Shown: piece by piece, positions 3,315 through 30,008 of the stretch
Numbering within the stretch: the stretch's first letter is position 1
Layout: every line of letters begins with the position of its first letter
Assembly: GCA_020060775.1 (NCBI GenBank)
Contig: JAGUZN010000220.1
Span: 984-64,983, forward strand
Direction: 5' to 3'
DNA: 64,000 nt
Source: Armatimonadota bacterium
GTDB taxonomy: Bacteria > Armatimonadota > Hebobacteria > CAIYQO01
Program-made: the position numbers and the translations under genes
Notes under the pieces: generated by a model
Databases searched by the model: none
The model's input: only the letters and a program-made list of their open reading frames with translations
Told to the model about the DNA's origin: nothing

Positions 3315-4388
3315 TTGAAAGGCGTGGAGCAGACCGTGGCAAAGTTGTTCATGAACGGCCTACAGCTAATTCTATCTTCCGATAGCTTCACTGCATACGA
3401 GGCAGAAATGCCCGAAGATGGTAGCTTGCGGAAACTGCGCGACCGATATGGCGACGGGTGGTTTTTCCATCGTCAAGGTAATAAGGTATATGGTTTTCCA
3501 CAAGTCGATCGTCCTACCATCCCATTTGGCACGTCCGTAGCATTAAAATGCCAAGAAAACCTTTCTATGCTAGCTGCGGTAGTCGGTGATATTATAGGAC
3601 GACGTCGATTCGGAGGCCAGGTATTATTCCGTCATCGTGGTGCGGAGTTCATCAGTAGTACAAAGGAACTCATCAGTGATGTCGCCAAACAAATGCCGGA
3701 TCTTCCCGACATAGTCAAGTTATTCAAAGCTTATCCACGTTTTACTTTAGAGGCAAAAGTCCTTGAGCTACGCGATGGCGATGGTGGGATCGGGTTATTC
3801 GTTACGTTGGGAAGCAGGTGGCGTATCGAAGCACCTCTCCACGATCTGTTGAGTAAAGGTATTGACCTTCAAGGTATGTACGTCGTTCGAAGGTATCCCG
3901 AGAAAGGCCAGCGGAGGCTTGTTGGTAGAATCTCCTGCATTGATAAAGGAACCGTCAAATTGCTAGAGTCATTCGACGGTACGGCTGAGATTGCGTGCGA
4001 CGACGTGTGGCTTGAAGGGAATAGAGAAAATTTTGCCTATTGCTTGAAGCACTTACTGAAGGCGCGTTACCTATCATTTGAGACTAAGCGTAGGGAAATA
4101 GAAGACCAGTTATTGTCGGGGCCTAAATTTCAGACAACGATACAAAGCATTGCACAGTCATTTACAAATAAGCCTCCCATGCAACTCACTCCTGATCTCC
4201 AGTGCATTGTTGGCGATATGATTTCCGTGAAAAATTTCGGCGGATACTGCACTGTGCGTGCCGCTTCTCCAGTGCAATGTTGCTATGATGCTGCACGGAC
4301 GCAACGGATGGAGTATCCCTGGAAAGGGATCGAAAATTTGGTCCGTTTAGTCGTGACACCTTTACAAGAAAATCACCGACGATACTAG
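3315..4388 (+). CDS. Prokaryotic Argonaute, N-terminal half (N/L1/PAZ-like/L2 region), separated from MID-PIWI by a frame change
   Basis: 357-aa ORF ends 2 nt before the MID-PIWI ORF and lies in another frame. Its length fits the N-terminal half of a long pAgo. No motif is readable by eye. Start is uncertain (TTG 3315 or ATG 3351). Confidence 0.55.
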   Translation: MKGVEQTVAKLFMNGLQLILSSDSFTAYEAEMPEDGSLRKLRDRYGDGWFFHRQGNKVYGFPQVDRPTIPFGTSVALKCQENLSMLAAVVGDIIGRRRFGGQVLFRHRGAEFISSTKELISDVAKQMPDLPDIVKLFKAYPRFTLEAKVLELRDGDGGIGLFVTLGSRWRIEAPLHDLLSKGIDLQGMYVVRRYPEKGQRRLVGRISCIDKGTVKLLESFDGTAEIACDDVWLEGNRENFAYCLKHLLKARYLSFETKRREIEDQLLSGPKFQTTIQSIAQSFTNKPPMQLTPDLQCIVGDMISVKNFGGYCTVRAASPVQCCYDAARTQRMEYPWKGIENLVRLVVTPLQENHRRY

Positions 4389-7290: not shown

Positions 7291-8298
7291 TTACAGATCA
7301 AGCAATGATGCCGAATTCTCTTGAAACAACACCCCCATGCGGATATACCGCTGCACCATCACATTCGACCGATGACCGGTCTGCTGCATGATAGATCGCT
7401 CGTTTGCACCTGCACGGGCGGCGGCGGTGCAGTGGCCGGCGCGCAGGGAGTGACCGCTGTAGCGTTTCGGATCAAGGCCGATCTCTTTCACCATCTTCTT
7501 GATGAGATTGGCGACGGCACGATCCGATAAGCGCTCACTGCAGAGTTTGTCATGACGGTTGATGCCGCGGAAGAGGGCGCCGCCGGTAATCCCGCTGGAT
7601 TCCAGCCAGGATTTCAAGGCACGCACTGGACAGGTTTCTTCATGAGTGCCAAATGGTATGGCGACCCAACGCCCTTCACCTTCTTGATCTGTTTTTGATC
7701 GGCGGAGGCAGATAACGACTCCTTCCTCCCTGAAGGTCAGGTCGGCGACATCAAAGGCGACCAACTCGGAGCGCCGGAAGGCGCCAGCGTATCCCAGGAG
7801 TAGCAGTGCGCGGTCCCGCCGGCCTTTCAATGTCTCTGGTAATACCGCCATGATGCGTCTCATGTCATCGGTCATCAAGGCATCGACCTGGCGGGCGGTG
7901 ACGCCGATCCGCCGGCGAATGCCGCGCATGACGGCCCGCACGGCGGCGTGTTGGGTGGGGGAGGGGTGGCCAGCGTGTTGGTGGATGGCGCTGATGGCGG
8001 CCATATAGCGCGAGAGCGTGCTGTACTTGTGGTCGGTCGTCGCCATCGCCGTCATGTAGCAGGCAATCGTCTCAGGGCTGGCCGGCATCGACGGCAAGTG
8101 GTATTGTTCGCACCAGGCCACGAACTGCTGCCAATCCCGCTCGTAGGCCTCCCGCGTGTGTTGCGAGATACCTTCCTCGATGAACTCCTGGACTTGCTCG
8201 ATCAGTGGAACGAGAAGGGTGTGATCGGGGTGCTGGTTGGCACTGGGCCCGATCCGGGCAGGCAGTGATGCTGGCTGGGTGATGGGAGCCTGATCCAT
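7291..8298 (-). CDS. Tyrosine recombinase / phage-type integrase (XerC/D-like)
   Basis: N-terminal SAM-like domain (TREAYERDWQQFVAWC). C-terminal catalytic signature RRSELVAF..HSLRAGHCT..TGHRSNVMVQRYIR (R..HxxR..H..Y). Confidence 0.85.
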   Translation of the reverse strand: MDQAPITQPASLPARIGPSANQHPDHTLLVPLIEQVQEFIEEGISQHTREAYERDWQQFVAWCEQYHLPSMPASPETIACYMTAMATTDHKYSTLSRYMAAISAIHQHAGHPSPTQHAAVRAVMRGIRRRIGVTARQVDALMTDDMRRIMAVLPETLKGRRDRALLLLGYAGAFRRSELVAFDVADLTFREEGVVICLRRSKTDQEGEGRWVAIPFGTHEETCPVRALKSWLESSGITGGALFRGINRHDKLCSERLSDRAVANLIKKMVKEIGLDPKRYSGHSLRAGHCTAAARAGANERSIMQQTGHRSNVMVQRYIRMGVLFQENSASLLDL

Positions 8299-8561: not shown

Positions 8562-8927
8562 GTGCGTAATACGTTACTTTTAGTTGGTGGCGGCGAATTA
8601 TCAACGCTCATCTACAAGCCTGCCCTGGAGGACGCCAATTTTCAGGTAATCCTTACGCCTGATGCACGGGTGGCAGTGCAAATGGTCATACAGTACCATG
8701 CTCAAAGTATTCTCATTGATGATTCGATTCAGCCCAGTCAAGCTGAGGAAATCATCACCAATATCCATCAACTCACCCCAACAGTTAAGAGCATTTTGCT
8801 CTGTGATGGCGATAATATCAGTGATAATGCTCTCCAGTACCTGTTTGATGGCATATATCAGAAAAGCTGGCCATTACCAGTTTTAGTCACACTGGTTCGT
8901 TTTCTTCTGTGTCAGCAGGAGTCCTAA
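8562..8927 (+). CDS. CheY-like receiver-domain protein, probably a pseudo-receiver
   Basis: 121 aa with a GTG start after GGGGGCAGG. REC-like layout LLLVGGG..ILIDDSI..SILLCDG..YQKSWP, but the N-terminal acidic DD pair is replaced by GG. The gene is AT-rich relative to its flanks. Confidence 0.4.
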   Translation: MRNTLLLVGGGELSTLIYKPALEDANFQVILTPDARVAVQMVIQYHAQSILIDDSIQPSQAEEIITNIHQLTPTVKSILLCDGDNISDNALQYLFDGIYQKSWPLPVLVTLVRFLLCQQES

Positions 8928-8964: not shown

Positions 8965-9144
8965 TTGACAATCCAAGCTGAAGAGCGTATCGTTTCACCA
9001 TATTAATGCATACCTCAACTATGTCCGAGATGCATATCGCCGTCTGCATTACCTGGGAGACATAACCGTCGCATCCGGGCACGCTGCGCTTTTTTCACCT
9101 CTTCCCGGATGCCGGGAAGGGGTTTTCTTTTTCAGGGGGTCCGT
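8965..9144 (+). promoter_or_regulatory. Leader cassette X1: promoter, 19-codon uORF and intrinsic terminator upstream of a nucleotidyltransferase gene
   Basis: TTGACA 8965-8970, 17-nt spacer, TATCGT 8988-8993. uORF 9006-9065 encodes MHTSTMSEMHIAVCITWET*. Terminator at 9098-9132. Blocks CCGTCTG, TGGG, ATAACCGTCG, CCGGG and the terminator are shared with the cassette at 22590-22769. Confidence 0.55.
9098..9132 (+). terminator. Rho-independent terminator / attenuator hairpin
   Basis: CCTCTTCCCGG-ATG-CCGGGAAGGGG forms an 11-bp stem with one G-U pair, followed by TTTTCTTTTT. Confidence 0.7.
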
Positions 9145-9939
9145 TTGATTGCGCTTCGAGGCGATACCCGCTTGTTGCCTTTGGTCTCATGGTGGCAGAC
9201 AGAAATCCATACCGTGTTAAGCGACAAGCTGCAAGCGGTGGTGCTGGGCGGCAGCACGGTGCTTGGCGATTTCCAGCCGGGGTGGAGCGATGTCGATGTC
9301 TGCGTGGTGCTGCGTACGCCGATCACGGAAGCCGAAGGCGCTGTTATCGGACAGGTGCACGACGCCATGCGTGCCCACTTCATCGACGGTGGGCAAGATG
9401 GCTGGCGATCAGGTCAGGCCATTGAAGGTGCCTATATCACCGGCGAGATGTTGCAGTATGGACACGCTGGCACCTGTTACGTCGCCGGCGGTAGCACGCG
9501 CTGGTGGGGTGTGAAAGATCCTATTTCGCCGTTCGACCGCCTGATATATGCCCAACACGGTTGCTGGTTGTTTGGTGAAGAAGTGCCTATTGCCCTGCCA
9601 GATGGAAAGGCTTTGCGGGCACAATCTATCCGCGATTCGCAGGAATTCATAAACCCACCAGCCGGGTGCCTGGAATCCGCCATCTGGCTGGCCGGCATCA
9701 TGCACTGGTTGTCCCGCACGCTGGTCTTCTGGCGGGATGGGGAACTGGTATCCAAAACCGCCGCGCTGGAGCGCGAGGTCGCCGCTGGTAGACCGCTGGC
9801 GAGCGCCTTCATCCTGCCCCTGGCCTTGCGGCGGGAGGGGAGTGCAGCGTGCCGGCAGCATGTTGATGATCTTCGGTATAATTACCAGGCGAATCTTGAT
9901 ACGGCTGTGCAGTCATTGGTCGAAGTCGGACTGCTGTAA
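9145..9939 (+). CDS. Nucleotidyltransferase-domain protein (aminoglycoside/small-molecule adenylyltransferase-like)
   Basis: VVLGGSTVLGDFQPGWSDVDVCVVL matches the GS-x(n)-D-x-D polymerase-beta-type NTase motif. The ATG at 9109 lies inside the terminator hairpin, so I moved the start to TTG 9145, 5 nt after AGGGGG. Confidence 0.6.
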   Translation: MIALRGDTRLLPLVSWWQTEIHTVLSDKLQAVVLGGSTVLGDFQPGWSDVDVCVVLRTPITEAEGAVIGQVHDAMRAHFIDGGQDGWRSGQAIEGAYITGEMLQYGHAGTCYVAGGSTRWWGVKDPISPFDRLIYAQHGCWLFGEEVPIALPDGKALRAQSIRDSQEFINPPAGCLESAIWLAGIMHWLSRTLVFWRDGELVSKTAALEREVAAGRPLASAFILPLALRREGSAACRQHVDDLRYNYQANLDTAVQSLVEVGLL

Positions 9940-22504: not shown

Positions 22505-22589
22505 GGTTGGCGCCTGCTATAGAGAACTATTGCCAATATGAGGAACCGGTATTGAGCCCGCTTGTGATGGCGATTGCTCGAGCCAAACG

Positions 22590-22769
22590 TTGACACCTGC
22601 CGCTTGCCTCACTATACTGCGCATATGCTGTTCATTAATCCGGTCATCGAACATACCTTCCGTCTGTACGCGTGGGCTCCATAGCCGTCGTGCCGGGATG
22701 TATTGTATTCGCTTTCTCACCCCTCCCGGTACTCGGGAGGGGTTTTCGCTTTACCAGGAGGGCAACGCC
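22590..22769 (+). promoter_or_regulatory. Leader cassette X2: consensus promoter, leaderless 19-codon uORF and intrinsic terminator upstream of a methyltransferase gene
   Basis: TTGACA 22590-22595, 17-nt spacer, TATACT 22613-22618. uORF 22625-22684 encodes MLFINPVIEHTFRLYAWAP*. Terminator at 22720-22752. Paralogous to 8965-9144. Confidence 0.6.
22720..22752 (+). terminator. Rho-independent terminator / attenuator hairpin
   Basis: CCCCTCCCG-GTACT-CGGGAGGGG forms a 9-bp stem, followed by TTTTCGCTTT. Confidence 0.7.
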
Positions 22770-23606
22770 ATGGCAACCATAAAATATGATCCCCAATGGG
22801 TGCGTGACTTCTACGATGCCTACGGCATGCAGGAGTGGGAACGGTTTGACCGTCATCCCATGCTGCGCATCGCCTTCGCCATCCATCAGCACTACCTGCG
22901 GCAGTATCTGCAGCCGGGACAGCATATATTGGAGATCGGCGCGGGCGCCGGGCGCTTTACCCAGGTGCTGGCAGAGATGGGCATGCGGGTGACCGTGGCC
23001 GATATCTCACCGATCCAATTGGCGTTGAACCGGCAGCAGGCCGACACGCATGGCTTTGCGTCGGCAGTTGACCAGTGGGTCGAGTGTGATGCCTGCGATC
23101 TGCGCGGACAGTTTGCCGACAAGGCTTTCGACGCGGTGGTCGCCTATGGCGGCCTGCTCAGCTACGTCTTCGATCAGGCCGGCTTGGTGCTGACCGAGTT
23201 GCAGCGCGTGGTGATGCCGGGTGGTCCCATCTTTCTGGAAGTAATGAGCCTGTGGGGGGCGATCCATTGCTATCTGCCGCCGGTGTTGTCCATCGACCCG
23301 GCGGTGAACCGCCAGATCGTCGCCCGCGGTGATCTGGACCGGGAGTTGGCGATTTCCACGCACTATTGCCACATGTATCGTGCCAAGGAGTTCCGGCAAC
23401 TGATTGAGGAGTGCGGACTGACCATCGAGGTCATGAGCGCCAGCAATGCGCTCTCCACCAACTGGGAAGAGCAACTTCGCACCATCCATGAAGACAGCCC
23501 TGCCTGGCAGCACCTGCTGGAAATGGAACTGGAAGCCTGCCGCGAGCCGGGGTGTCTGGACATGGGCACGCATTTGATTGCGGTGTGCCGGAGGAGCACG
23601 ACATGA
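22770..23606 (+). CDS. Class I SAM-dependent methyltransferase
   Basis: Motif I is ILEIGAGAGRFTQVLAEMGMRVTVADIS. Start is ATG 22770 after CAGGAGGG. Confidence 0.75.
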   Translation: MATIKYDPQWVRDFYDAYGMQEWERFDRHPMLRIAFAIHQHYLRQYLQPGQHILEIGAGAGRFTQVLAEMGMRVTVADISPIQLALNRQQADTHGFASAVDQWVECDACDLRGQFADKAFDAVVAYGGLLSYVFDQAGLVLTELQRVVMPGGPIFLEVMSLWGAIHCYLPPVLSIDPAVNRQIVARGDLDRELAISTHYCHMYRAKEFRQLIEECGLTIEVMSASNALSTNWEEQLRTIHEDSPAWQHLLEMELEACREPGCLDMGTHLIAVCRRSTT

Positions 23607-24004
23607 ATGAACAGACTATTCCTGTGCCAACCCTCGCAGAGATGCGCGCACTGGAAGAAAGCCTACTGAAGCCTGATCTGCGCTCGTCACCAGAGGTGCT
23701 TCAGCGGATGCTGGCAGATGATTTTCTGGAGTTTGGTGCGTCGGGCCGTTCCTATGATAAACAACAGGTGATTGCAGGCCTACTCAATCAGGTCGAAGAA
23801 GAGTTTGTTATCGATGACTTCTGCATACGGCACTTGGCTCCGGGGGTGATATTAACGACATATCGGGTGACGCGTCGGCGTAACCCGTCTCATGTAGCGC
23901 CATACTCTTTGCGCAGCTCGGTCTGGAAATACCTGCTGGGGCACTGGCAAATGCTCTTTCATCAAGGCACGCCAACTGATCTGTCTACCAATGAGCATGG
24001 ATAA
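23603..24004 (+). CDS. NTF2-fold protein (DUF4440/SnoaL-like)
   Basis: ATGA overlap with the upstream stop. LLKPDLRSSPEVLQRMLADDFLEFGASGRSYDKQQV is typical of DUF4440. Confidence 0.5.
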   Translation: MNEQTIPVPTLAEMRALEESLLKPDLRSSPEVLQRMLADDFLEFGASGRSYDKQQVIAGLLNQVEEEFVIDDFCIRHLAPGVILTTYRVTRRRNPSHVAPYSLRSSVWKYLLGHWQMLFHQGTPTDLSTNEHG

Positions 24005-24025
24005 CGACAGCATGGCACCTGCAGT

Positions 24026-24931
24026 ATGCCAGAAGGCAGGGTCGTAATGAAAGAGATGAAGACGTTACACTGCCAACATTGGTCCTCGCGTGCGCGCCTC
24101 GACGCTCTCCTCCAGCGGCTCATCGCCTGCTTGCCAGGAGTGCCGGGCTTTCGGACCTTGTCGCTCTTCGGCTCGGTGGCGGAAGGGCGGGCCGACGGCT
24201 ACTCGGATATCGATATGATCCTGACCACCGACGATTTGCCGGCGGCGCAGCATGCCGTGCTTGATGTGTTGGAAGCGGGTGTCGGGCCGGTGGAGAGTTG
24301 CTGGGCCATCGCGCTGCGCCCGGATGAGTGGAATCCGACGATCATCTTCTCGGAGGAGGGCTATTACCACAAGCTCGACCTCGGGCTGGTGGCATCGACC
24401 GCCGTCACCCCTACTATCCCACCGGAGCAAACCACCGTGTTGGTGACACAACCGGTGGGGCATCAACGCGCTTCGGCACCGGAGAGCACGGCCTATCTGC
24501 CGCCATACGGCTCGGTCGGACATTTCTTGCTCGGGCAATTGCTTGGCGGCAACCGCTATTGTAAAGCGCGCAAGCGCGGGCAGCCGCTCACCTGCTACCG
24601 CTTCGTCTCCGCCGCGGCGGACTGGTGCCTGCGTGCCCTGCATGTGCGCTTAACTGGCAAAGTAATGTGGCAGGGCAAGCTGTCCACGGAGGAATACGCC
24701 GTCCTGGGTGGCCTTGATACCGGTGGCCGGGGCCGCACCATCCTCGCCGCCTTGGACTACTCGACCCCGGAGAAGATGGATCAGTCGCTCTGCGGCATCT
24801 TCCGGCACCTGTACGAACTCTGCGGGGAGATATCTGCCATGCAGAGCGAAGTATTACCGGTCGGCATGTTCGAGCGCATGCTGGATTTTATGAGGACTGA
24901 GTTGGACATTGCAGAAGGACACCAACCATGA
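24026..24931 (+). CDS. Nucleotidyltransferase-domain protein
   Basis: LSLFGSVAEGRADGYSDIDMILTTDD matches the GS..DxD motif. Start could instead be ATG 24047. Confidence 0.6.
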   Translation: MPEGRVVMKEMKTLHCQHWSSRARLDALLQRLIACLPGVPGFRTLSLFGSVAEGRADGYSDIDMILTTDDLPAAQHAVLDVLEAGVGPVESCWAIALRPDEWNPTIIFSEEGYYHKLDLGLVASTAVTPTIPPEQTTVLVTQPVGHQRASAPESTAYLPPYGSVGHFLLGQLLGGNRYCKARKRGQPLTCYRFVSAAADWCLRALHVRLTGKVMWQGKLSTEEYAVLGGLDTGGRGRTILAALDYSTPEKMDQSLCGIFRHLYELCGEISAMQSEVLPVGMFERMLDFMRTELDIAEGHQP

Positions 24932-25749
24932 CGAATGTCGCCGACTTCTACACCCAGGGTGCCGCCCGTGAATGGGAACGTCTGGAGCAGGCACCGTATC
25001 AGCACCTGGAATTCCAGGTGACCCTGCACTTCCTGCGCAAGCACCTGCCGCCGGAGGGCGTGATCCTCGACGCCGGTGGCGGGCCGGGGCGGTATGCGCT
25101 GGCGCTTAGCCGCGAAGGGCGTGAGGTTGTGCTGTGCGACCTGGCGCCGGGCAATATCGCCCTGGCACGGGAGCAGTTCACTGGGGAACCTGAAGCGGTG
25201 CGTGCCCGGCTGCGCGAGGCACAGGTGGCGGATATTCGTGCCCTACCGTATGCGGACAGCACGTATACCGCCGTGCTCTGCCTGGGTGGGCCGCTGTCGC
25301 ATCTGCCTGATCCAATGGATCGCGAGCAGGCGGTGCGGGAACTGGTGCGCGTGGCCGCGCCCGGCGGGCTGGTGGTGCTGACCGGCATCGGCGCCCTGGC
25401 GGTGTTGCGCACCATCATCATGATCTGTCCGCACGAACTGGTCGACGGCTCGCTGGACACCTTTTCCAATGACGGCAACTCCCCCGGCCCAGGCGGCATG
25501 CTCTGGCACTGGTTCCGTGCGGCAGAGTTGCGAGAACTGGCGGAGTCGGCCGGTTTGACCACCCTGGAGATGGCCGGCTGCCAGGGACTCTCCACCGGCC
25601 TGGAGGAGGCAACAAACCGACTCGCGGCGAACGAAGAGCAATGGCAGCGCTGGCTCGATATCCTGCTGGCCACCGCCACCGAGCCGCCGGTGGTCGATAT
25701 GGCGGAGCATCTGCTGTATGTTGGGCGCAAGGAGGGGATACGTGAATGA
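24928..25749 (+). CDS. Class I SAM-dependent methyltransferase
   Basis: VILDAGGGPGRYALALSREGREVVLCDLAPGNI. ATGA overlap with the upstream gene. Confidence 0.75.
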   Translation: MTNVADFYTQGAAREWERLEQAPYQHLEFQVTLHFLRKHLPPEGVILDAGGGPGRYALALSREGREVVLCDLAPGNIALAREQFTGEPEAVRARLREAQVADIRALPYADSTYTAVLCLGGPLSHLPDPMDREQAVRELVRVAAPGGLVVLTGIGALAVLRTIIMICPHELVDGSLDTFSNDGNSPGPGGMLWHWFRAAELRELAESAGLTTLEMAGCQGLSTGLEEATNRLAANEEQWQRWLDILLATATEPPVVDMAEHLLYVGRKEGIRE

Positions 25750-26573
25750 CGCACCAGCAGACCCCGACGATGCTTCGCGCAGCCATGGTCAGTTATCCTG
25801 TCGCTCTCGGTGATGTCGATGCCAATCGGCGGGTGATTGAGACGACATTGGCCGCGCATGATGGCATCGACCTGTTCGTCTTCCCCGAACTCTGCCTGTG
25901 CGGAAACCTGCCGCCAACCATTGAGGCGATGAGCCGTGTTGCTGAGGCCGTGCCAGCCGGACCATCCGCCCAGCACATGATCGCACTGGCACAACGCTAT
26001 CAGACCGTGCTCTGTGCCGGTATTATCGAGGTGGAGGACGGTGCGTATTATGCCACGCACTTCCTCTGTGGGCCACAGGGCTATCTCGGGAAGCAACGGA
26101 AACTGTTTCCCTCGCGCGGGGTGCCGCATACCGGAGATCTCTCCGGCGGGCGAAATGTCACCCAGATAGAGCTCTTTGGCGTGGGGTGTGCTATCCTCGC
26201 CTGTGCAGACTGGATGCTGCCGGAAGGGCCTTACCTGGCGAGTCTACAGGACGTGGCACTCATCCTTGCCCCGACAGACAGGTATGAATCATCACGGATG
26301 GACCTGCTCTGCCAAATCGGTCAGGCGCGGGTATTCGACAGTCACGCCTGCCTGGCTGTCGCCTTCGGGCGTGACGCGTCCTGTCACGACGACGCGCCCA
26401 CTGGTCTGGTCGTCCATGCGGATAGCACCGTACAGATGGAAGCCTGTGCCGACTCCGCTGTGCAGGTCATGGTATCCGAGTTGTGCCTTCAGCCTCCCCT
26501 GCACCGGTGGGGGAGGCCTGTTGATCGGGTGACGACCGTTTGGGAGGTTATAGGAGGATCACATGATCGATGA
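25746..26573 (+). CDS. Carbon-nitrogen hydrolase (nitrilase-superfamily) protein
   Basis: An E-K-C triad can be assigned from FVFPELCLCG (E), GKQRKLFP (K) and AILACADW (C). ATGA overlap with the upstream gene. Confidence 0.65.
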   Translation: MTHQQTPTMLRAAMVSYPVALGDVDANRRVIETTLAAHDGIDLFVFPELCLCGNLPPTIEAMSRVAEAVPAGPSAQHMIALAQRYQTVLCAGIIEVEDGAYYATHFLCGPQGYLGKQRKLFPSRGVPHTGDLSGGRNVTQIELFGVGCAILACADWMLPEGPYLASLQDVALILAPTDRYESSRMDLLCQIGQARVFDSHACLAVAFGRDASCHDDAPTGLVVHADSTVQMEACADSAVQVMVSELCLQPPLHRWGRPVDRVTTVWEVIGGSHDR

Positions 26574-27351
26574 CATCGCTGCCGTGAACCGCGAACGCTG
26601 GAATGCCATGGCCAGCGCCAAGGTGATGTTCTCACGACCGTTCTTCGACTTCACCCGAGAAGAGGCGGCTGCCTACATCCACTGCGATACCATGCTCGGT
26701 GATGTGGCAGGCAAAGACGTGCTGTGCCTGGCGAGTGGGGGCGGACAGGATTCGGCGGCGTTCGGTTTGCTGGGGGCCAGTGTCACGGTATTCGATCTGT
26801 CCGACGTGCAATTGTCTCGTGATCAGGATGCCGCCCGATCTCATGGCTACACGGTGCAGACCGTGCAAGGCGACATGCGCGACCTGTCCGCCTTCACAGC
26901 GAACACCTTCGACATTGTCTGGCAGCCCTATTCCATCAATTACAGCCCGACGGTCGAGCCGGTGATCGCCGAAGTGGCCCGCGTGCTGAAGCCCGGCGGC
27001 ATCTATCACCTGGCCTTCGCCAATCCGTTCGCGCTGGCGATGGACAACGGTTGGGACGGTAACGGCTATCCCCTGCGCGACCTGTATCGAGACGGCGAGG
27101 ACATTACACGGTTCTTCCCCATCTGGGAACTGGAGCAGGAGGACGGTACGGTTGTGACCGTCGAGCGCCCGCACGAATTCCGCCATACGCTGAGCACCAT
27201 GTTCAATACGCTCGCCCGGCAGGGGTTCCAGTTCATGCAGATGTCAGAATGGGTGCGTCCGGATATCGACCCGGAGCAGGGCTCCTGGGCCCATTTCACC
27301 CAGTGTTGCCCGCCGTATCTGCAGACGTTCTGGCGGTGGGGTGGTTCGTAA
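26563..27351 (+). CDS. Class I SAM-dependent methyltransferase
   Basis: VLCLASGGGQDSAAFGLLGASVTVFDLSDVQL and VLKPGGIYHL. Overlaps the upstream gene by 11 nt. Confidence 0.75.
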   Translation: MIDDIAAVNRERWNAMASAKVMFSRPFFDFTREEAAAYIHCDTMLGDVAGKDVLCLASGGGQDSAAFGLLGASVTVFDLSDVQLSRDQDAARSHGYTVQTVQGDMRDLSAFTANTFDIVWQPYSINYSPTVEPVIAEVARVLKPGGIYHLAFANPFALAMDNGWDGNGYPLRDLYRDGEDITRFFPIWELEQEDGTVVTVERPHEFRHTLSTMFNTLARQGFQFMQMSEWVRPDIDPEQGSWAHFTQCCPPYLQTFWRWGGS

Positions 27352-27504: not shown

Positions 27505-29088
27505 ATGGAGGTGGATGACATGATGACACGCATTACACTGGTGCTGCTCCTGCTGGTCAGTCTCGTCGTCACGGTGCAGGCACAGGCACCGTTGAAGACC
27601 GAGGTATTGCATTGGCCGGAGGGGAAAGCCGCGGCGGTGGCGTTGACGTTCGACGACAATGTGCTCAGTCAACTCACCACTGCGATTCCGGAGTTGGAGA
27701 AACACGGCTACCGCGGCACCTTTTTCATCGTGGCACAATGGCTGGATCTCCCGGCGTCCGAGGAAGGGCTGGCGGTACAATGGCAGCAGGTGGCCCGGCG
27801 CGGGCATGAGATCGGCTGCCATACCTACTCGCACGCCTTTTTGACATCACTGCCCGAGGAAGCCCTTCAACGGCAAATCCAGGACGCAAAAGGAATCATT
27901 GAGCACTGGATCGGCGAGGGAAACTGCCGGATGTTCCGCGCGCCTTCGGCTACGAGTCCTGCGGCAGAGAAGCTGATCCGCGAACTCTTCCCGCTGAACG
28001 CCGTGAACCTGGGGCGGGACGACAAGGTGATTTGTACCGTGCCGCGCACCTATGGGGACGTCAAACGACAGATCGACCAGACGATCGCCGACCGCGGCAT
28101 CTATCTGCCCATCTGGCACGGCGTCGGGGCTGATTTCACGAAGATCTCCACCGAAGATTTCCAGCACGTGCTGCAGTATCTGGACGAGCGGCGTGCGGTT
28201 GTGTGGGTGGCCACCATGAGCGAGGTGGCACGCTATGTCGGCTTGCGCCAGCAGGCCGTGGTCTCATCGGAGGGGGGCATCCACCTGGTGCTGCCGCCGG
28301 GGATGGACATCAAACGGTTCAATGTGCCGTTGTGGCTGCGCACGACGGTACCGGCCGAGTGGACAACGGTCTGCCTGCGGCGCGGGCTGTCATGTGCCGT
28401 GGTTCCGACGGTAGCCGCGCCAGGGGGGCGCATAATTGATTACCTGGTGGCACCGGGCGAGACCTGGTCCATCGAACGCTATACCCCCATTGACACGACG
28501 GCGCTTAAGCTGACAAATGTCGCAACCGCATCGTTCGACACCCCGGAAACGCTCAAGACATGGACGGTGATCAGCGGGAAGGCGCAGGTTGCGGATGGAG
28601 TGGTGCGCCTGGAGAATGGCAGTGGTCTGCTGCTCAACGATTTACAGTTGGCGGATGGGCAACTGCGCGGTCGGTTCCGGTTGACTGATGATCCCGCGCT
28701 GCGGAAATATGCCTGCTGGGCCGGCCTGCTCTTCCGCGTGCGCGCCGTCTGGCCGGCGAACGGCTATACGGGACTATTTTACGAACTGGCGAACCAACCC
28801 GAATACAGCGATTTCCGTCCCAATCGGGTGTTGCTCTGGCAGCAATTAGGCTACAAAGAGCCGACGTGGCCCAACCGGCTCTGCGGTTCGGGAGCATCGG
28901 AACAGCCTTCCGGCGCCTGGCACACCTTCGAAGTCACCATCCAGGGTGACCGGCTGCGCTATTTGGTTGACGGCAAGCTCGTCTTCCACCTCGCGGGCCT
29001 GGACCCGGCCGCGGGCCAAGTAGGCCTACGGGCGATGAACTCGGCAGTAGAATTCGACGATATTGTCGTCTCGCGCATCGAGCCATAA
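27505..29088 (+). CDS. Secreted polysaccharide deacetylase (NodB domain) with a C-terminal DUF1080/lectin-like domain
   Basis: Signal-like TRITLVLLLLVSLVVTVQAQA. NodB motifs ALTFDDN and CHTYSH. C-terminal WHTFEVTIQGDRLRYLVDGKLVF..VEFDDIVV resembles 3-keto-disaccharide-hydrolase/DUF1080. Confidence 0.65.
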   Translation: MEVDDMMTRITLVLLLLVSLVVTVQAQAPLKTEVLHWPEGKAAAVALTFDDNVLSQLTTAIPELEKHGYRGTFFIVAQWLDLPASEEGLAVQWQQVARRGHEIGCHTYSHAFLTSLPEEALQRQIQDAKGIIEHWIGEGNCRMFRAPSATSPAAEKLIRELFPLNAVNLGRDDKVICTVPRTYGDVKRQIDQTIADRGIYLPIWHGVGADFTKISTEDFQHVLQYLDERRAVVWVATMSEVARYVGLRQQAVVSSEGGIHLVLPPGMDIKRFNVPLWLRTTVPAEWTTVCLRRGLSCAVVPTVAAPGGRIIDYLVAPGETWSIERYTPIDTTALKLTNVATASFDTPETLKTWTVISGKAQVADGVVRLENGSGLLLNDLQLADGQLRGRFRLTDDPALRKYACWAGLLFRVRAVWPANGYTGLFYELANQPEYSDFRPNRVLLWQQLGYKEPTWPNRLCGSGASEQPSGAWHTFEVTIQGDRLRYLVDGKLVFHLAGLDPAAGQVGLRAMNSAVEFDDIVVSRIEP

Positions 29089-29201
29089 CATGCCTGGAGG
29101 ATGAATATCGCGCCAGCGCCGGAGTCGGCGATTACACGGGGTGATGATGTGTTATTTTTTCTCGATATGGCGGAGTGCAACAAGCAGCGGGGAGATCAGC
29201 A

Positions 29202-30008
29202 GTGACCGAACATATCAACGCCAACATCGACCGCTTCAGCGGCTTTGCCGATTGCTATGACCGGTATCGCCCGCAGCCGCCGGCGGTGATTCCGGAGATC
29301 CTCGCGCAACTGCTGGGTGATCCGATGCCGACGCTGGTGGTCGACCTGGGCAGCGGCACGGGGCTCTCGACGCGCATCTGGGCCGGCAAGGCGCGGGAGG
29401 TGATCGGCATTGAGCCGAATGCTGACATGCGCCGGGTGGCGAAGGCGCAGACGCCGCCGGATGCCGGCATCCGGTACCAAAATGGCCTCTCGACGCAGAT
29501 GCACGTGCCGGATGCGAGCGCCGACATCATCTGCTGCTCGCAGGCCTTCCACTGGATGGCGCCGGAACCCACCCTCGCCGAAGTGGCGCGCGTGCTGCAT
29601 CCAGGTGGGGTATTCGCCGCCATCGACTGCGATTGGCCGCCGACGCTGCATTGGCAGGCGGAACAGGCTTATCGCGCCCTGATGCACCAGGTGGGCATGC
29701 TTGAGCACCAGCACGGCATCTACCACACGGTGAAGAAGTGGCCGAAAGATCGCCACCTCGCCAATATCCAGGCCAGCGGCCATTTCCGGTATACGAACGA
29801 AGTGATCGTTCATCATGTCGAGTCCGGCAATACCGACCGCCTCATCGGCCTGGCACTCAGTCAGGGAGGGGTAGAAGGCTTGCTGAAGCTTGGCCTGACA
29901 GAAGAGGAGATCGGCCTGACCGCCTTCCGCGCTACGGTGTATGCCTTGTTAGGCGACACCCCCTGTCCCTGGTATTTCGGGTACCGTGTGCGGTTAGGGG
30001 TGAGGTAG
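29202..30008 (+). CDS. Class I SAM-dependent methyltransferase
   Basis: LVVDLGSGTGLSTRIWAGKAREVIGIEPNADM. I chose the start at GTG 29202, 7 nt after GGGGAG. The ORF is open from 29175. Confidence 0.7.
   Translation: MTEHINANIDRFSGFADCYDRYRPQPPAVIPEILAQLLGDPMPTLVVDLGSGTGLSTRIWAGKAREVIGIEPNADMRRVAKAQTPPDAGIRYQNGLSTQMHVPDASADIICCSQAFHWMAPEPTLAEVARVLHPGGVFAAIDCDWPPTLHWQAEQAYRALMHQVGMLEHQHGIYHTVKKWPKDRHLANIQASGHFRYTNEVIVHHVESGNTDRLIGLALSQGGVEGLLKLGLTEEEIGLTAFRATVYALLGDTPCPWYFGYRVRLGVR

What the first reader, a model, noticed from the sequence alone, without database searches (positions are those of the whole stretch)
22590..22769. Leader cassette copy 2: near-consensus promoter with a leaderless 19-codon uORF and terminator upstream of a SAM methyltransferase
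Seen directly: TTGACA (22590) -17 nt- TATACT (22613). The uORF ATG at 22625 lies 7 nt after the -10, where transcription is expected to start, so the uORF would be leaderless. The uORF is MLFINPVIEHTFRLYAWAP* and ends at TAG 22682-22684, followed by CCGTCG. CCGGG (22692-22696) is complementary to the terminator 5' arm. The terminator is at 22720-22752, with RBS CAGGAGGG and ATG 22770. Block-wise homology to 8965-9144 includes ATTAAT, CCGTCTG, TGGG, ATA(A/G)CCGTCG, CCGGG and the CACC..CCCGG-loop-CGGGA.GGGGTTTTC hairpin. This cassette heads a co-directional array of six modifying-enzyme genes.
Basis: partly seen in the sequence, partly recalled or inferred. Interest (0 to 1): 0.55.

Follow-up and report, generated by a model that had tools for sequence, protein, structure and literature searches.

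The report
Conserved leaderless-uORF transcription attenuator, Armatimonadota
The flagged 180 bases are a real gene switch conserved across related bacteria: a strong promoter, a tiny 19-codon reading frame that starts at the transcript's first base, and a terminator hairpin that a stalled ribosome can prevent from forming; the type of switch is well known, but this family, its phylum and the enzyme genes it controls are new.

Summary
The window comes from an Armatimonadota MAG. I collected 13 distinct versions of the leader: two in this window and 11 from relatives. All 13 share these features:
- a TTGACA-17-TATACT-like promoter;
- an 18-20 codon uORF, leaderless or nearly so in 11 of 13;
- a stop codon in the apical loop of a hairpin (P1) whose 5' strand is the end of the uORF;
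- an invariant CCGGG in the P1 3' strand;
- a GC-rich intrinsic terminator.

Evidence that the uORF is translated: every indel inside it is a multiple of 3, while indels after the stop are 1-2 nt, and synonymous changes occur. The CCGGG segment can instead pair with the terminator's 5' arm and loop. This antiterminator helix covaries between the two subtypes (A-U five times, U-A five times at one pair).

Best model: a ribosome-dependent transcription attenuator. A ribosome stalled at the conserved (Ala/Thr)-Trp codons melts P1 and frees the antiterminator. The trigger is unresolved; candidates are ribosome-targeting drugs or translation stress, or shortage of charged tRNA-Trp. Downstream lie arrays of methyltransferases, GNATs, a phosphotransferase, nucleotidyltransferases and HAD phosphatases.

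The leader matches no Rfam family. I class it as a new member of a known kind, of moderate interest.

The parts
22590..22618 (+). Sigma-70-type promoter: -35 TTGACA (22590-22595), 17-nt spacer, -10 TATACT (22613-22618).
   Evidence: 11/12 match. The same hexamers and spacing occur in orthologous leaders L001, L003, L006, L009, L053 and L065.
22625..22684 (+). Leaderless 19-codon uORF MLFINPVIEHTFRLYAWAP with TAG stop at 22682-22684. The conserved Ala-Trp codons GCG TGG are at 22670-22675.
   Evidence: An 18-20 codon uORF is present in 13/13 family members. All indels inside it are multiples of 3. The other two frames carry stops in 5/13 and 6/13 sequences. Trp sits at position -3 or -4 from the stop in 12/13.
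22648..22711 (+). P1 anti-antiterminator hairpin in four helical segments. Its 5' strand is uORF codons 9-18, the stop codon lies in the apical loop, and its 3' strand contains the antiterminator core CCGGG (22693-22697).
   Evidence: predicted -19.3 kcal/mol. The RNAalifold consensus of the seven type A leaders gives the same hairpin. In 13/13 leaders CCGGG is paired to uORF sequence before the terminator is made.
22690..22698 (+). Antiterminator 5' strand GUGCCGGGA. It pairs with UCCCGGUAC at 22724-22732, which is the terminator's 5' arm plus loop: 9 bp, predicted -13.2 kcal/mol.
   Evidence: In the family alignment this helix is 83.6% paired against 25-58% when the partner is slid. Pair 73:112 is A-U five times and U-A five times.
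22719..22752 (+). Intrinsic terminator: ACCCCUCCCGG-uac-UCGGGAGGGGU followed by UUUCGCUUU.
   Evidence: predicted -20.9 kcal/mol. It is 96.9% paired across the 13 leaders, with 3 pairs changed on both sides.
22756..23606 (+). Shine-Dalgarno AGGAGG (22756-22761) and the first regulated gene, a 278-aa class I SAM methyltransferase (ATG 22770).
   Evidence: No equivalog-level assignment was found, so the substrate is unknown.
23552..27351 (+). Rest of the tightly packed co-directional array: DUF4440, a protein with no Pfam hit, MTase, CN-hydrolase, MTase. A deacetylase (27505-29088) and a further MTase (29175-30008) follow after gaps.
   Evidence: Genes overlap or are spaced by 22 nt or less up to 27351.
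8965..9134 (+). Paralogous leader (copy 1, subtype B). Promoter TTGACA 8965-8970 and TATCGT 8988-8993. uORF 9006-9065 reads MHTSTMSEMHIAVCITWET with a TAA stop. Antiterminator strand GCAUCCGGG 9071-9079 pairs with CCCGGAUGC 9104-9112. Terminator 9097-9134. It heads an array of nucleotidyltransferase, GNAT, HAD, HAD, GNAT and S9 peptidase genes.

Best explanation
This is a ribosome-dependent (leader-peptide) transcription attenuator.

The steps:
1. Transcription starts at or next to the uORF's AUG, so the leader peptide is translated from a leaderless mRNA.
2. As the RNA emerges, the second half of the uORF pairs with the segment just after the stop codon. This forms hairpin P1, which locks up the CCGGG-containing antiterminator strand.
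3. The GC-rich terminator then folds and transcription stops before the methyltransferase operon. This is the default OFF state. It also applies when the ribosome finishes the uORF and is released quickly.
4. If a ribosome is held in the last third of the uORF, most favourably with the conserved (Ala/Thr)-Trp codons in its P and A sites, it melts the 5' strand of P1 but does not yet cover the segment after the stop.
5. That segment then pairs with the terminator's 5' arm and loop (9 bp in this copy). The terminator cannot form, and RNA polymerase reads into the operon.

What is shown: the sequence anatomy, its conservation, the coding behaviour of the uORF, and covariation of the antiterminator helix.
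What is inferred: the transcription start, translation itself, stalling, and conditional read-through.

Trigger: I think ribosome stalling caused by translation-targeting compounds or translation stress is the most likely signal, at about 0.4. The operons encode arrays of small-molecule-modifying enzyme families: methyltransferases, GNATs, an APH-type phosphotransferase, nucleotidyltransferases and HAD phosphatases.
For: - Conservation. The same leader lies upstream of orthologous MTases at 60-81% identity in independent Armatimonadota MAGs and metagenome contigs. There are 13 distinct sequences.
- Translation. All indels inside the uORF are multiples of 3, while those after the stop are mostly 1-2 nt. 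Synonymous changes occur in MLFINP-type N-termini. The start codon lies 6-12 nt after the -10 in 11/13 leaders. In L063, where the uORF start lies about 40 nt downstream of the predicted -10, a GAGGA Shine-Dalgarno-like sequence appears. The uORF frame is open in 13/13, against stops in 5/13 and 6/13 for the other frames.
- Structure. The terminator is 96.9% paired. The antiterminator is 83.6% paired against 25-58% for slid controls, with A-U/U-A compensation that reaches into the terminator loop. P1 is recovered by RNAalifold for both subtypes, with the stop codon in the apical loop.
- Order of folding. CCGGG is paired to uORF sequence in 13/13 pre-terminator transcripts.
- Ribosome effect. 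With a ribosome footprint placed on the Trp codon, the antiterminator is the predicted fold in 11/13.
- Precedent in the phylum. A Tyr-rich leader peptide plus terminator lies upstream of tyrS in L011.
- Gene content.
Against: - There are no experimental data. The transcription start is inferred from promoter spacing only.
- At equilibrium the terminator (-20.9 kcal/mol) always beats the antiterminator (-13.2 kcal/mol) in predictions, so the switch must be kinetic.
- In 8/13 truncated transcripts without a ribosome, the predicted minimum-energy fold already contains the antiterminator. The OFF state therefore depends on P1 forming first during transcription.
- None of the downstream enzymes reaches a curated resistance-gene or equivalog model.
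- One member (L057) has Arg in place of Trp and precedes panB.
- The very high nucleotide conservation of CAUAG(G)CCGUCG, including after the stop, is more than this model requires.
Confidence: 0.75

Rival explanations
1. Same attenuator hardware, but the signal is charged tRNA-Trp, or aromatic amino acids more broadly. The ribosome pauses at the single conserved UGG when Trp-tRNA is scarce. Scarcity could come from starvation or from a natural TrpRS inhibitor of the indolmycin type. An attenuator of this kind controlling a drug-resistant trpRS1 in Streptomyces coelicolor is something I recall from memory; it is not in the searched library.
For: - Trp is present in 12/13 leaders, 3-4 codons before the stop. 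In my reading of the footprint geometry, this is the 3'-most ribosome position that leaves the whole antiterminator free. From memory, E. coli trpL has the same layout (W-W-R-T-S-stop).
- Leaders in front of the MTase orthologs are rich in aromatic residues: 32 of 171, or 19%, against 9% in window genes.
- Homologs of this MTase lie inside an aromatic-amino-acid supraoperon (L067) and directly downstream of a tyrS that has a Tyr-rich leader (L011).
Against: - There is only one Trp codon, and no run of regulatory codons.
- None of the regulated genes is a Trp biosynthesis gene or an aminoacyl-tRNA synthetase.
- In subtype B the UGG pairs directly with the CCGGG core, so its conservation could be structural.
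- L057 replaces Trp with Arg.
- The trp operon leader region in L067 shows no obvious leader of this kind or terminator (read by eye).
Confidence: 0.25
2. The conserved P1 hairpin is a ligand- or protein-binding RNA (a riboswitch or a RAT-like element). Binding would stabilise or melt P1, and the uORF would be secondary or incidental.
For: - Nucleotide conservation of ACAUAG(G)CCGUCGCG(A)CCGGGA continues past the stop codon. It is shared by both subtypes even though their pairing partners differ.
- A conserved internal loop (UG/GU) is present in subtype A.
- L057 keeps the nucleotides but loses Trp.
Against: - Indels inside the uORF are multiples of 3, and the start codon is maintained next to the promoter or behind a Shine-Dalgarno-like sequence in 12 of 13; L013 has only a weak candidate.
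- Nothing in Rfam matches even at permissive thresholds.
- P1 differs in architecture between the subtypes, which is unlike a conserved aptamer.
Confidence: 0.1
3. There is no conditional control. The hairpin is a leaky constitutive terminator or an RNA-stability element, and the uORF encodes a small peptide with its own function.
For: - Some peptide-level conservation exists: MLFINP... in four subtype A leaders and HI(A/V)V..TWET in subtype B.
- Leader peptides acting in trans are known in Sinorhizobium (PMC7298713).
Against: - It does not explain covariation between the post-stop segment and the terminator loop.
- It does not explain the fixed placement of the stop codon in the P1 apical loop in both subtypes.
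Confidence: 0.05

Closest known systems
Classical amino-acid leader-peptide attenuators (E. coli trpL type; summarised in PMC4007540, which cites Yanofsky 1981)
   Same: - A short leader ORF.
- Three mutually exclusive helices: 1:2 anti-antiterminator, 2:3 antiterminator, 3:4 intrinsic terminator.
- A Trp codon 3-4 codons before the stop.
- The stop codon lies between segments 1 and 2.
   Different: - A single Trp codon rather than a run.
- The regulated genes are arrays of methyltransferases, GNATs, nucleotidyltransferases and HAD phosphatases, not biosynthetic or aminoacyl-tRNA synthetase genes.
- The uORF is leaderless.
- The phylum is different, and there is no Rfam leader family match.
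Leaderless leader peptides: 14 predicted in Deinococcus deserti (PMC4007540), polycysteine leaderless sORF attenuators in mycobacteria (bioRxiv 10.1101/834739), and leader peptides of trpE, leuA, ilvB and aroF in Corynebacterium glutamicum (PMC3890552)
   Same: The transcript starts at the AUG of a short regulatory ORF that precedes an operon.
   Different: - Those peptides are enriched in the cognate amino acid and control amino-acid or tRNA synthetase genes.
- This peptide has a conserved (A/T)-W-x-T-stop end, and its targets are modifying enzymes.
Antibiotic-sensing leader ORFs with transcription attenuation: BmrB-bmrCD in Bacillus subtilis (PMC4191407), the hflXr leader (PMC6310831), the msrD leader (PMC10314930) and toiL in E. 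coli (PMC12121999)
   Same: - Translation of a short uORF is required.
- Alternative stem-loops include an intrinsic terminator.
- Induction is by ribosome stalling.
- The downstream genes protect against xenobiotics.
   Different: - Here the downstream genes are putative drug-modifying enzymes of unknown substrate, not ABC-F proteins, ABC transporters or HflX.
- No known stalling motif is present.
- Induction has not been tested.
TnaC (from memory: a nascent peptide that senses free Trp)
   Same: A short leader peptide with one conserved Trp and Pro or Thr as the last residue before the stop.
   Different: - TnaC needs a 12-residue Trp-to-Pro spacing, stalls at the stop codon and blocks Rho-dependent termination.
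- Here Trp is 3-4 codons from the stop and the terminator is intrinsic.

Membership tests
Ribosome-mediated (leader-peptide) transcription attenuator, general class | A short ORF in the 5' leader that is translated. | tested here: met
   The evidence is comparative only. An 18-20 codon ORF is present in 13/13, its indels are multiples of 3, synonymous changes occur, and a Shine-Dalgarno-like sequence appears in L063, where the uORF start lies far downstream of the predicted -10. Translation itself has not been observed.
Ribosome-mediated (leader-peptide) transcription attenuator, general class | An intrinsic terminator between the leader ORF and the first structural gene. | tested here: met
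   Stem of 10-11 bp at -20.9 kcal/mol plus a T-tract. It is 96.9% paired across the 13 leaders.
Ribosome-mediated (leader-peptide) transcription attenuator, general class | An antiterminator helix that excludes the terminator. | tested here: met
   22690-22698 pairs with 22724-22732. The helix is 83.6% paired against 25-58% for slid controls, with 3 pairs changed on both sides.
Ribosome-mediated (leader-peptide) transcription attenuator, general class | An anti-antiterminator whose 5' strand lies within the translated ORF. | tested here: met
   P1 is found in 13/13 pre-terminator folds and in the RNAalifold consensus of both subtypes.
Ribosome-mediated (leader-peptide) transcription attenuator, general class | Read-through depends on ribosome position. 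| not testable with these tools
   Only a constrained-folding simulation was possible.
Amino-acid-sensing leader peptides (trpL, pheL, hisL type) | Several codons for the sensed amino acid, and a cognate biosynthetic or aminoacyl-tRNA synthetase operon downstream. | tested here: not met
   There is one Trp codon, and the downstream genes are MTases, GNATs, nucleotidyltransferases and the like. By contrast, L011 has a true Tyr-rich leader upstream of tyrS.
Antibiotic-inducible leader peptides (erm, cat, bmrB, msrD type) | The downstream gene is a demonstrated resistance determinant. | tested here: inconclusive
   Pfam families typical of drug-modifying enzymes are present: APH, Adenyl_transf, NTP_transf_2, GNAT and MTase. 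No NCBIfam curated model reaches its cut-off, and PDB sequence hits are uninformative.
Antibiotic-inducible leader peptides (erm, cat, bmrB, msrD type) | Drug-dependent ribosome stalling at a defined peptide motif. | not testable with these tools
   The residue before Trp is always Ala or Thr. From memory, Ala, Ser or Thr in the penultimate position favours stalling by chloramphenicol and linezolid. This is a lead, not a test.
Leaderless leader peptides (Deinococcus, Mycobacterium type) | The transcription start coincides with the start codon. | tested here: inconclusive
   The ATG lies 6-12 nt after the -10 in 11/13 leaders. No transcription-start data exist.
Any Rfam 15 family (riboswitches, leaders, sRNAs) | The covariance model scores at or above the gathering threshold. 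| tested here: not met
   There are no hits in the window at gathering thresholds. In the two leaders the best permissive hits are E=0.2-0.3 to unrelated families.

The most novel reading that the evidence does not exclude
The conserved C-terminal end (Ala/Thr)-Trp-x-(x)-Thr/Pro-stop is a new nascent-peptide sensor. Together with the ribosome, it would detect a specific small molecule: a peptidyl-transferase-centre antibiotic, a TrpRS inhibitor or an indole-type metabolite. It would switch on dedicated arrays of modifying enzymes, forming an inducible xenobiotic-inactivation regulon in Armatimonadota with at least two operons per genome.
Probability: 0.3. Interest if true: 0.7.

Novelty: new member of a known kind. 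Interest (0 to 1): 0.5.

Why it matters
Armatimonadota have few cultured members and, as far as I could find, no described cis-regulatory RNAs; a library search for Armatimonadetes plus attenuator returned nothing.

This leader family gives that phylum a compact, sequence-defined and testable switch. It also ties at least two operons per genome into a common response. These operons encode uncharacterised methyltransferases, acetyltransferases, nucleotidyltransferases, phosphotransferases and phosphatases.

Identifying the trigger would suggest what those enzymes act on. If it is an antibiotic, they are a reservoir of inducible inactivating enzymes. If it is charged tRNA-Trp, this would be an unusual output for amino-acid attenuation.

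The two subtypes also form a natural compensatory experiment. Their antiterminator and terminator-loop sequences have co-changed.

Tried and rejected
- **Integron attC sites or cassette array.** A tyrosine recombinase lies at 7291-8298 on the minus strand next to copy 1. Rejected: genes inside the arrays overlap or abut without repeats, and the covariance model finds only two copies, each between a promoter and a first gene.
- **Further copies in the window or in 19 related loci.** None found.
- **Programmed frameshift from the uORF into the MTase frame.** That frame is open from 22590. Rejected: the frame relation is 0, 1 or 2 in different members, and in-frame stops intervene in several.
- **Known RNA family.** Rfam gathering and permissive scans were negative.
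- **Genome-wide pattern scan of 185,579 species genomes.** It gave 39 hits, about my rough estimate of the chance number (~35). Only 4 were real, and all 4 were Armatimonadota. The metagenome scan gave 10 hits, 7 of them real. The family is therefore narrow, or its core varies beyond the pattern; win2 itself fails the pattern.
- **Looking for the same leader upstream of the trp operon that contains an MTase homolog (L067).** None seen by eye.
- **Looking for it upstream of an NTase ortholog (L068).** Absent.
- **Assigning a substrate to the MTase or the NTase.** NCBIfam, PDB sequence search and source names gave only generic class I MTase or nucleotidyltransferase labels.
- **Equilibrium folding with ribosome footprints on full-length leaders.** The terminator always wins, so only truncated, co-transcriptional folds are informative.

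Full report
**1. What is in the sequence**

One search shows the following elements, all on the + strand:
- TTGACA at 22590-22595, a 17-nt spacer, and TATACT at 22613-22618.
- ATG at 22625, the 7th base after the -10 hexamer.
- A 19-codon ORF, MLFINPVIEHTFRLYAWAP, ending at TAG 22682-22684.
- CCGTCG at 22685-22690 and CCGGG at 22693-22697.
- A hairpin ACCCCTCCCGG-TAC-TCGGGAGGGGT at 22719-22743, followed by TTTCGCTTT.
- AGGAGG at 22756-22761 and ATG at 22770.

The consensus scan of 20.5-30.5 kb rates the promoter 11/12. Only one other site in that stretch scores as high. The hairpin is the strongest terminator-like site there. Its predicted energy is -20.9 kcal/mol. ARAGORN finds no tRNA in the window and Rfam finds nothing at gathering thresholds.

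**2. Genes**

ATG 22770 opens a 278-aa class I SAM methyltransferase (Methyltransf_11/25). It is followed, with overlaps or gaps of 22 nt or less, by:
- a DUF4440 protein;
- a protein with no Pfam hit;
- a second MTase;
- a CN-hydrolase;
- a third MTase.

After a 154-nt gap comes a polysaccharide deacetylase, and after a further 87-nt gap another MTase.

The claimed copy 1 (8965-9144) precedes a nucleotidyltransferase (NTP_transf_2), GNAT, HAD, HAD, GNAT and S9 peptidase genes. No NCBIfam equivalog cut-off is reached. PDB sequence matches are generic for the MTase and absent for the nucleotidyltransferase.

**3. Origin and relatives**

The methyltransferase is 100% identical to a protein on a 65-kb NCBI contig. 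The named close homologs are from Armatimonadota MAGs.

I fetched the DNA around homologs at 60-81% identity. Nine orthologous loci have a 140-230 nt upstream region. The regions read, together with L053 from the pattern scan, carry the same leader.

Two pattern scans added more members:
- The scan of 185,579 species genomes gave 39 hits, about my rough estimate of the chance number (~35). Only four were real, and all four were Armatimonadota.
- The metagenome scan gave 10 hits, seven of them real.

In total there are 13 distinct leaders.
- Subtype A: win2, L001, L003, L006, L009, L053, L065. The end reads ...Y-A-W-(A/V)-(x)-T/P, stop, (G)CCGUCGCGACCGGGA.
- Subtype B: win1, L033, L041, L013, L057, L063. 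The end reads ...T-W-E-T, stop, CCGUCGCAUCCGGG.

**4. The two window copies are homologous**

BLAST sees only a shared 10-mer between them. nhmmer profiles built without any window sequence gave these hits:

| Profile | Copy 2 | Copy 1 |
|---|---|---|
| Subtype A | E=5.6e-29 | E=2.8e-7 |
| Subtype B | E=2e-10 | E=5e-34 |

No other hit in the 64 kb scored better than E=0.07. A covariance model of the 13 leaders (R1) finds no further copy in the window or in 19 related loci.

**5. The uORF behaves as coding sequence**

- In the MAFFT alignment A2 every indel inside the uORF is 3 nt long (columns 18-20, 39-41, 54-56). Indels after the stop are mostly 1-2 nt, up to 4 in the spacer.
- Four subtype A peptides share an N-terminus of the type MLFINP.V(I/V).(H/N)T, encoded with synonymous differences such as CTG/TTA/TTG and ATT/ATC.
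- The uORF frame is open in 13/13 leaders. The other two frames carry stops in 5/13 and 6/13.
- The ATG lies 6, 9 or 12 nt after the -10 in 11/13 leaders. In L063, where the uORF start lies about 40 nt downstream of the predicted -10, a GAGGA sequence sits 5 nt upstream of the ATG.
- Trp occupies position -3 or -4 from the stop in 12/13. L057 has AGG, Arg.
- The residue before Trp is always Ala or Thr, through four different codons: GCG, GCT, ACG and ACC.

**6. RNA structure**

RNAalifold on subtype A gives a four-segment hairpin, P1, whose 5' strand is the second half of the uORF. The stop codon lies in its apical loop. Its 3' strand contains GCGACCGGGA and the spacer after it. The terminator follows.

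Subtype B has a shorter P1: CCUGGG pairs with UCCGGG, and GAC with GUC, around the loop AUAACC, which holds the UAA stop. In this subtype the UGG codon pairs directly with the CCGGG core.

In all 13 leaders, a transcript cut just before the terminator has CCGGG paired to uORF sequence.

The post-stop segment can instead pair with the terminator's 5' arm plus loop. In copy 2 this is 22690-22698 with 22724-22732: 9 bp, -13.2 kcal/mol.

Measured on alignment A2:

| Helix | Cells paired | Slid controls | Other |
|---|---|---|---|
| Antiterminator | 83.6% | 25-58% | Pair 73:112 is A-U five times and U-A five times; pair 72:113 shows four pair types |
| Terminator | 96.9% | 51-74% | Three pairs changed on both sides |

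Because the covarying antiterminator positions lie in the terminator loop, the covariation is hard to explain except by selection for the antiterminator.

The caveats of the tool apply. There are 13 related sequences, so the shuffle counts are not probabilities.

**7. Effect of a ribosome (simulation)**

On full-length leaders the terminator is always in the minimum-energy fold, so any switch must be kinetic.

I then used transcripts that end at the terminator loop:
- With a 27-nt footprint placed so that Trp is in the A or P site, P1 is removed and the antiterminator becomes the predicted fold in 11/13.
- With the stop codon in the A site, the footprint covers the first 3-4 nt of the antiterminator strand.
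- Without a ribosome, 8/13 truncated transcripts already prefer the antiterminator.

The OFF state must therefore rely on P1 forming first during transcription. This is the weakest point of the model.

**8. Mechanism**

The architecture is that of a classical three-helix leader-peptide attenuator.
- No translation, or rapid completion of the uORF, gives P1 plus terminator: OFF.
- A ribosome held in the last third of the uORF gives the antiterminator: ON.

By the footprint geometry used, the conserved Trp is the 3'-most ribosome position that leaves the whole antiterminator free.

That this phylum uses leader-peptide attenuation is supported by L011. There a Tyr-rich uORF, MMAKTWLMVSYSYYYAYYSLMRPPGSWNR, and a terminator precede tyrS.

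**9. The trigger is unresolved**

*Option (a): drug or translation stress.* Every regulated array contains enzyme families typical of small-molecule modification: MTases, GNATs, APH, Adenyl_transf/NTP_transf_2, HAD and kinases. Two such operons per genome share the leader: this window, and L003 plus L041 from one MAG. Known analogues are BmrB-bmrCD (PMC4191407), hflXr (PMC6310831), msrD (PMC10314930) and toiL (PMC12121999). From memory, an Ala or Thr penultimate to the P-site residue favours chloramphenicol and linezolid stalling. That fits the invariant (A/T)-W but is only a lead.

*Option (b): charged tRNA-Trp.* The evidence for it:
- the near-invariant single UGG and its position;
- aromatic-rich leaders in front of the MTase orthologs (19% F+Y+W against 9% in window genes);
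- MTase homologs embedded in an aromatic supraoperon (L067) and in a tyrS operon (L011).

The evidence against it:
- there is a single Trp codon;
- the targets are not biosynthetic;
- UGG has a structural role in subtype B;
- L057 has Arg in place of Trp and precedes panB.

A unifying variant is that the leader senses natural TrpRS inhibitors. This rests on memory only.

*Option (c): a ligand- or protein-binding P1.* This is suggested by the strong conservation of CAUAG(G)CCGUCG past the stop codon. It is disfavoured by the coding signatures and by the different P1 architectures in the two subtypes.

**10. Comparison with known systems, and novelty**

Leaderless leader peptides are known: 14 are predicted in Deinococcus deserti (PMC4007540), mycobacteria have polycysteine leaderless sORFs (10.1101/834739), and Corynebacterium glutamicum has leader peptides in amino-acid operons (PMC3890552). 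Those peptides are rich in the cognate amino acid and control biosynthetic or tRNA synthetase genes.

This family differs in four respects: peptide composition, target genes, phylum, and its absence from Rfam 15. No paper in the library links Armatimonadetes with attenuators.

It is therefore a new family within a well-known mechanism, not a new mechanism.

**11. Verdict**

- Confidence is 0.75 for a ribosome-dependent attenuator, about 0.4 for drug or stress sensing, and about 0.25 for Trp-tRNA sensing.
- Interest is 0.5.

Noticed in passing
L011:3428-3578: An Armatimonadota MAG contig carries a classical-looking Tyr attenuator upstream of tyrS. The uORF is MMAKTWLMVSYSYYYAYYSLMRPPGSWNR (7 Tyr in a run of 9 residues) and is followed by a strong terminator at 3544-3578. 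A homolog of the window's methyltransferase lies 46 nt downstream of tyrS.
   Followed up: partly
L067:4977-20831: In a 4.5-Mb genome, an aromatic-amino-acid supraoperon (trpE, G, D, C, F, B, A, chorismate mutase, DAHP synthase, prephenate dehydrogenase, EPSP synthase, shikimate dehydrogenase) is interspersed with four class I methyltransferase genes, a 2'-5' RNA ligase-like gene and an NTP_transf_2/HEPN pair. One of the MTases is 59% identical to the window's MTase. I saw no leader of the present family upstream of trpE by eye.
   Followed up: partly
L057 (minus strand; leader at about 9126-9256): A variant leader has AGG (Arg) in place of the conserved TGG (Trp). Its peptide is MKHHYASEMLTVTALTREA, and it precedes panB (ketopantoate hydroxymethyltransferase) instead of a modifying-enzyme array.
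   Followed up: partly
window:7291-8298 (-) and 8562-8927 (+): A tyrosine recombinase (Phage_integrase) gene and a 121-aa ORF with no Pfam hit lie immediately upstream of leader copy 1. An integron-like reading was considered and rejected. Whether the region is a genomic island was not examined.
   Followed up: partly
window:8802-8813 and 22563-22574: The same 12-mer, TGTGATGGCGAT, occurs upstream of both leaders: 163 nt before the -35 of copy 1 and 27 nt before the -35 of copy 2. The BLAST E-value is 0.69, so it may be chance. L003 has a similar TGGTGGCGGCG upstream of its -35.
   Followed up: no
window:20900-22504 (+): A T2SSE-type secretion ATPase with an N-terminal HTH_17 domain lies upstream of the leader-MTase unit in this window and in L001. 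In L063 it is also upstream, but three small genes intervene. This places the unit in a syntenic core region rather than a mobile one.
   Followed up: no
window:30302-31093 (+): An AbiEi-type antitoxin gene lies just downstream of the methyltransferase array; its AbiEii partner was not checked.
   Followed up: no
L063:12503-12555 (+): An Acido-Lenti-1 RNA (RF01687) scores 40.9 bits, above its gathering score of 37, in an Armatimonadota MAG contig.
   Followed up: no
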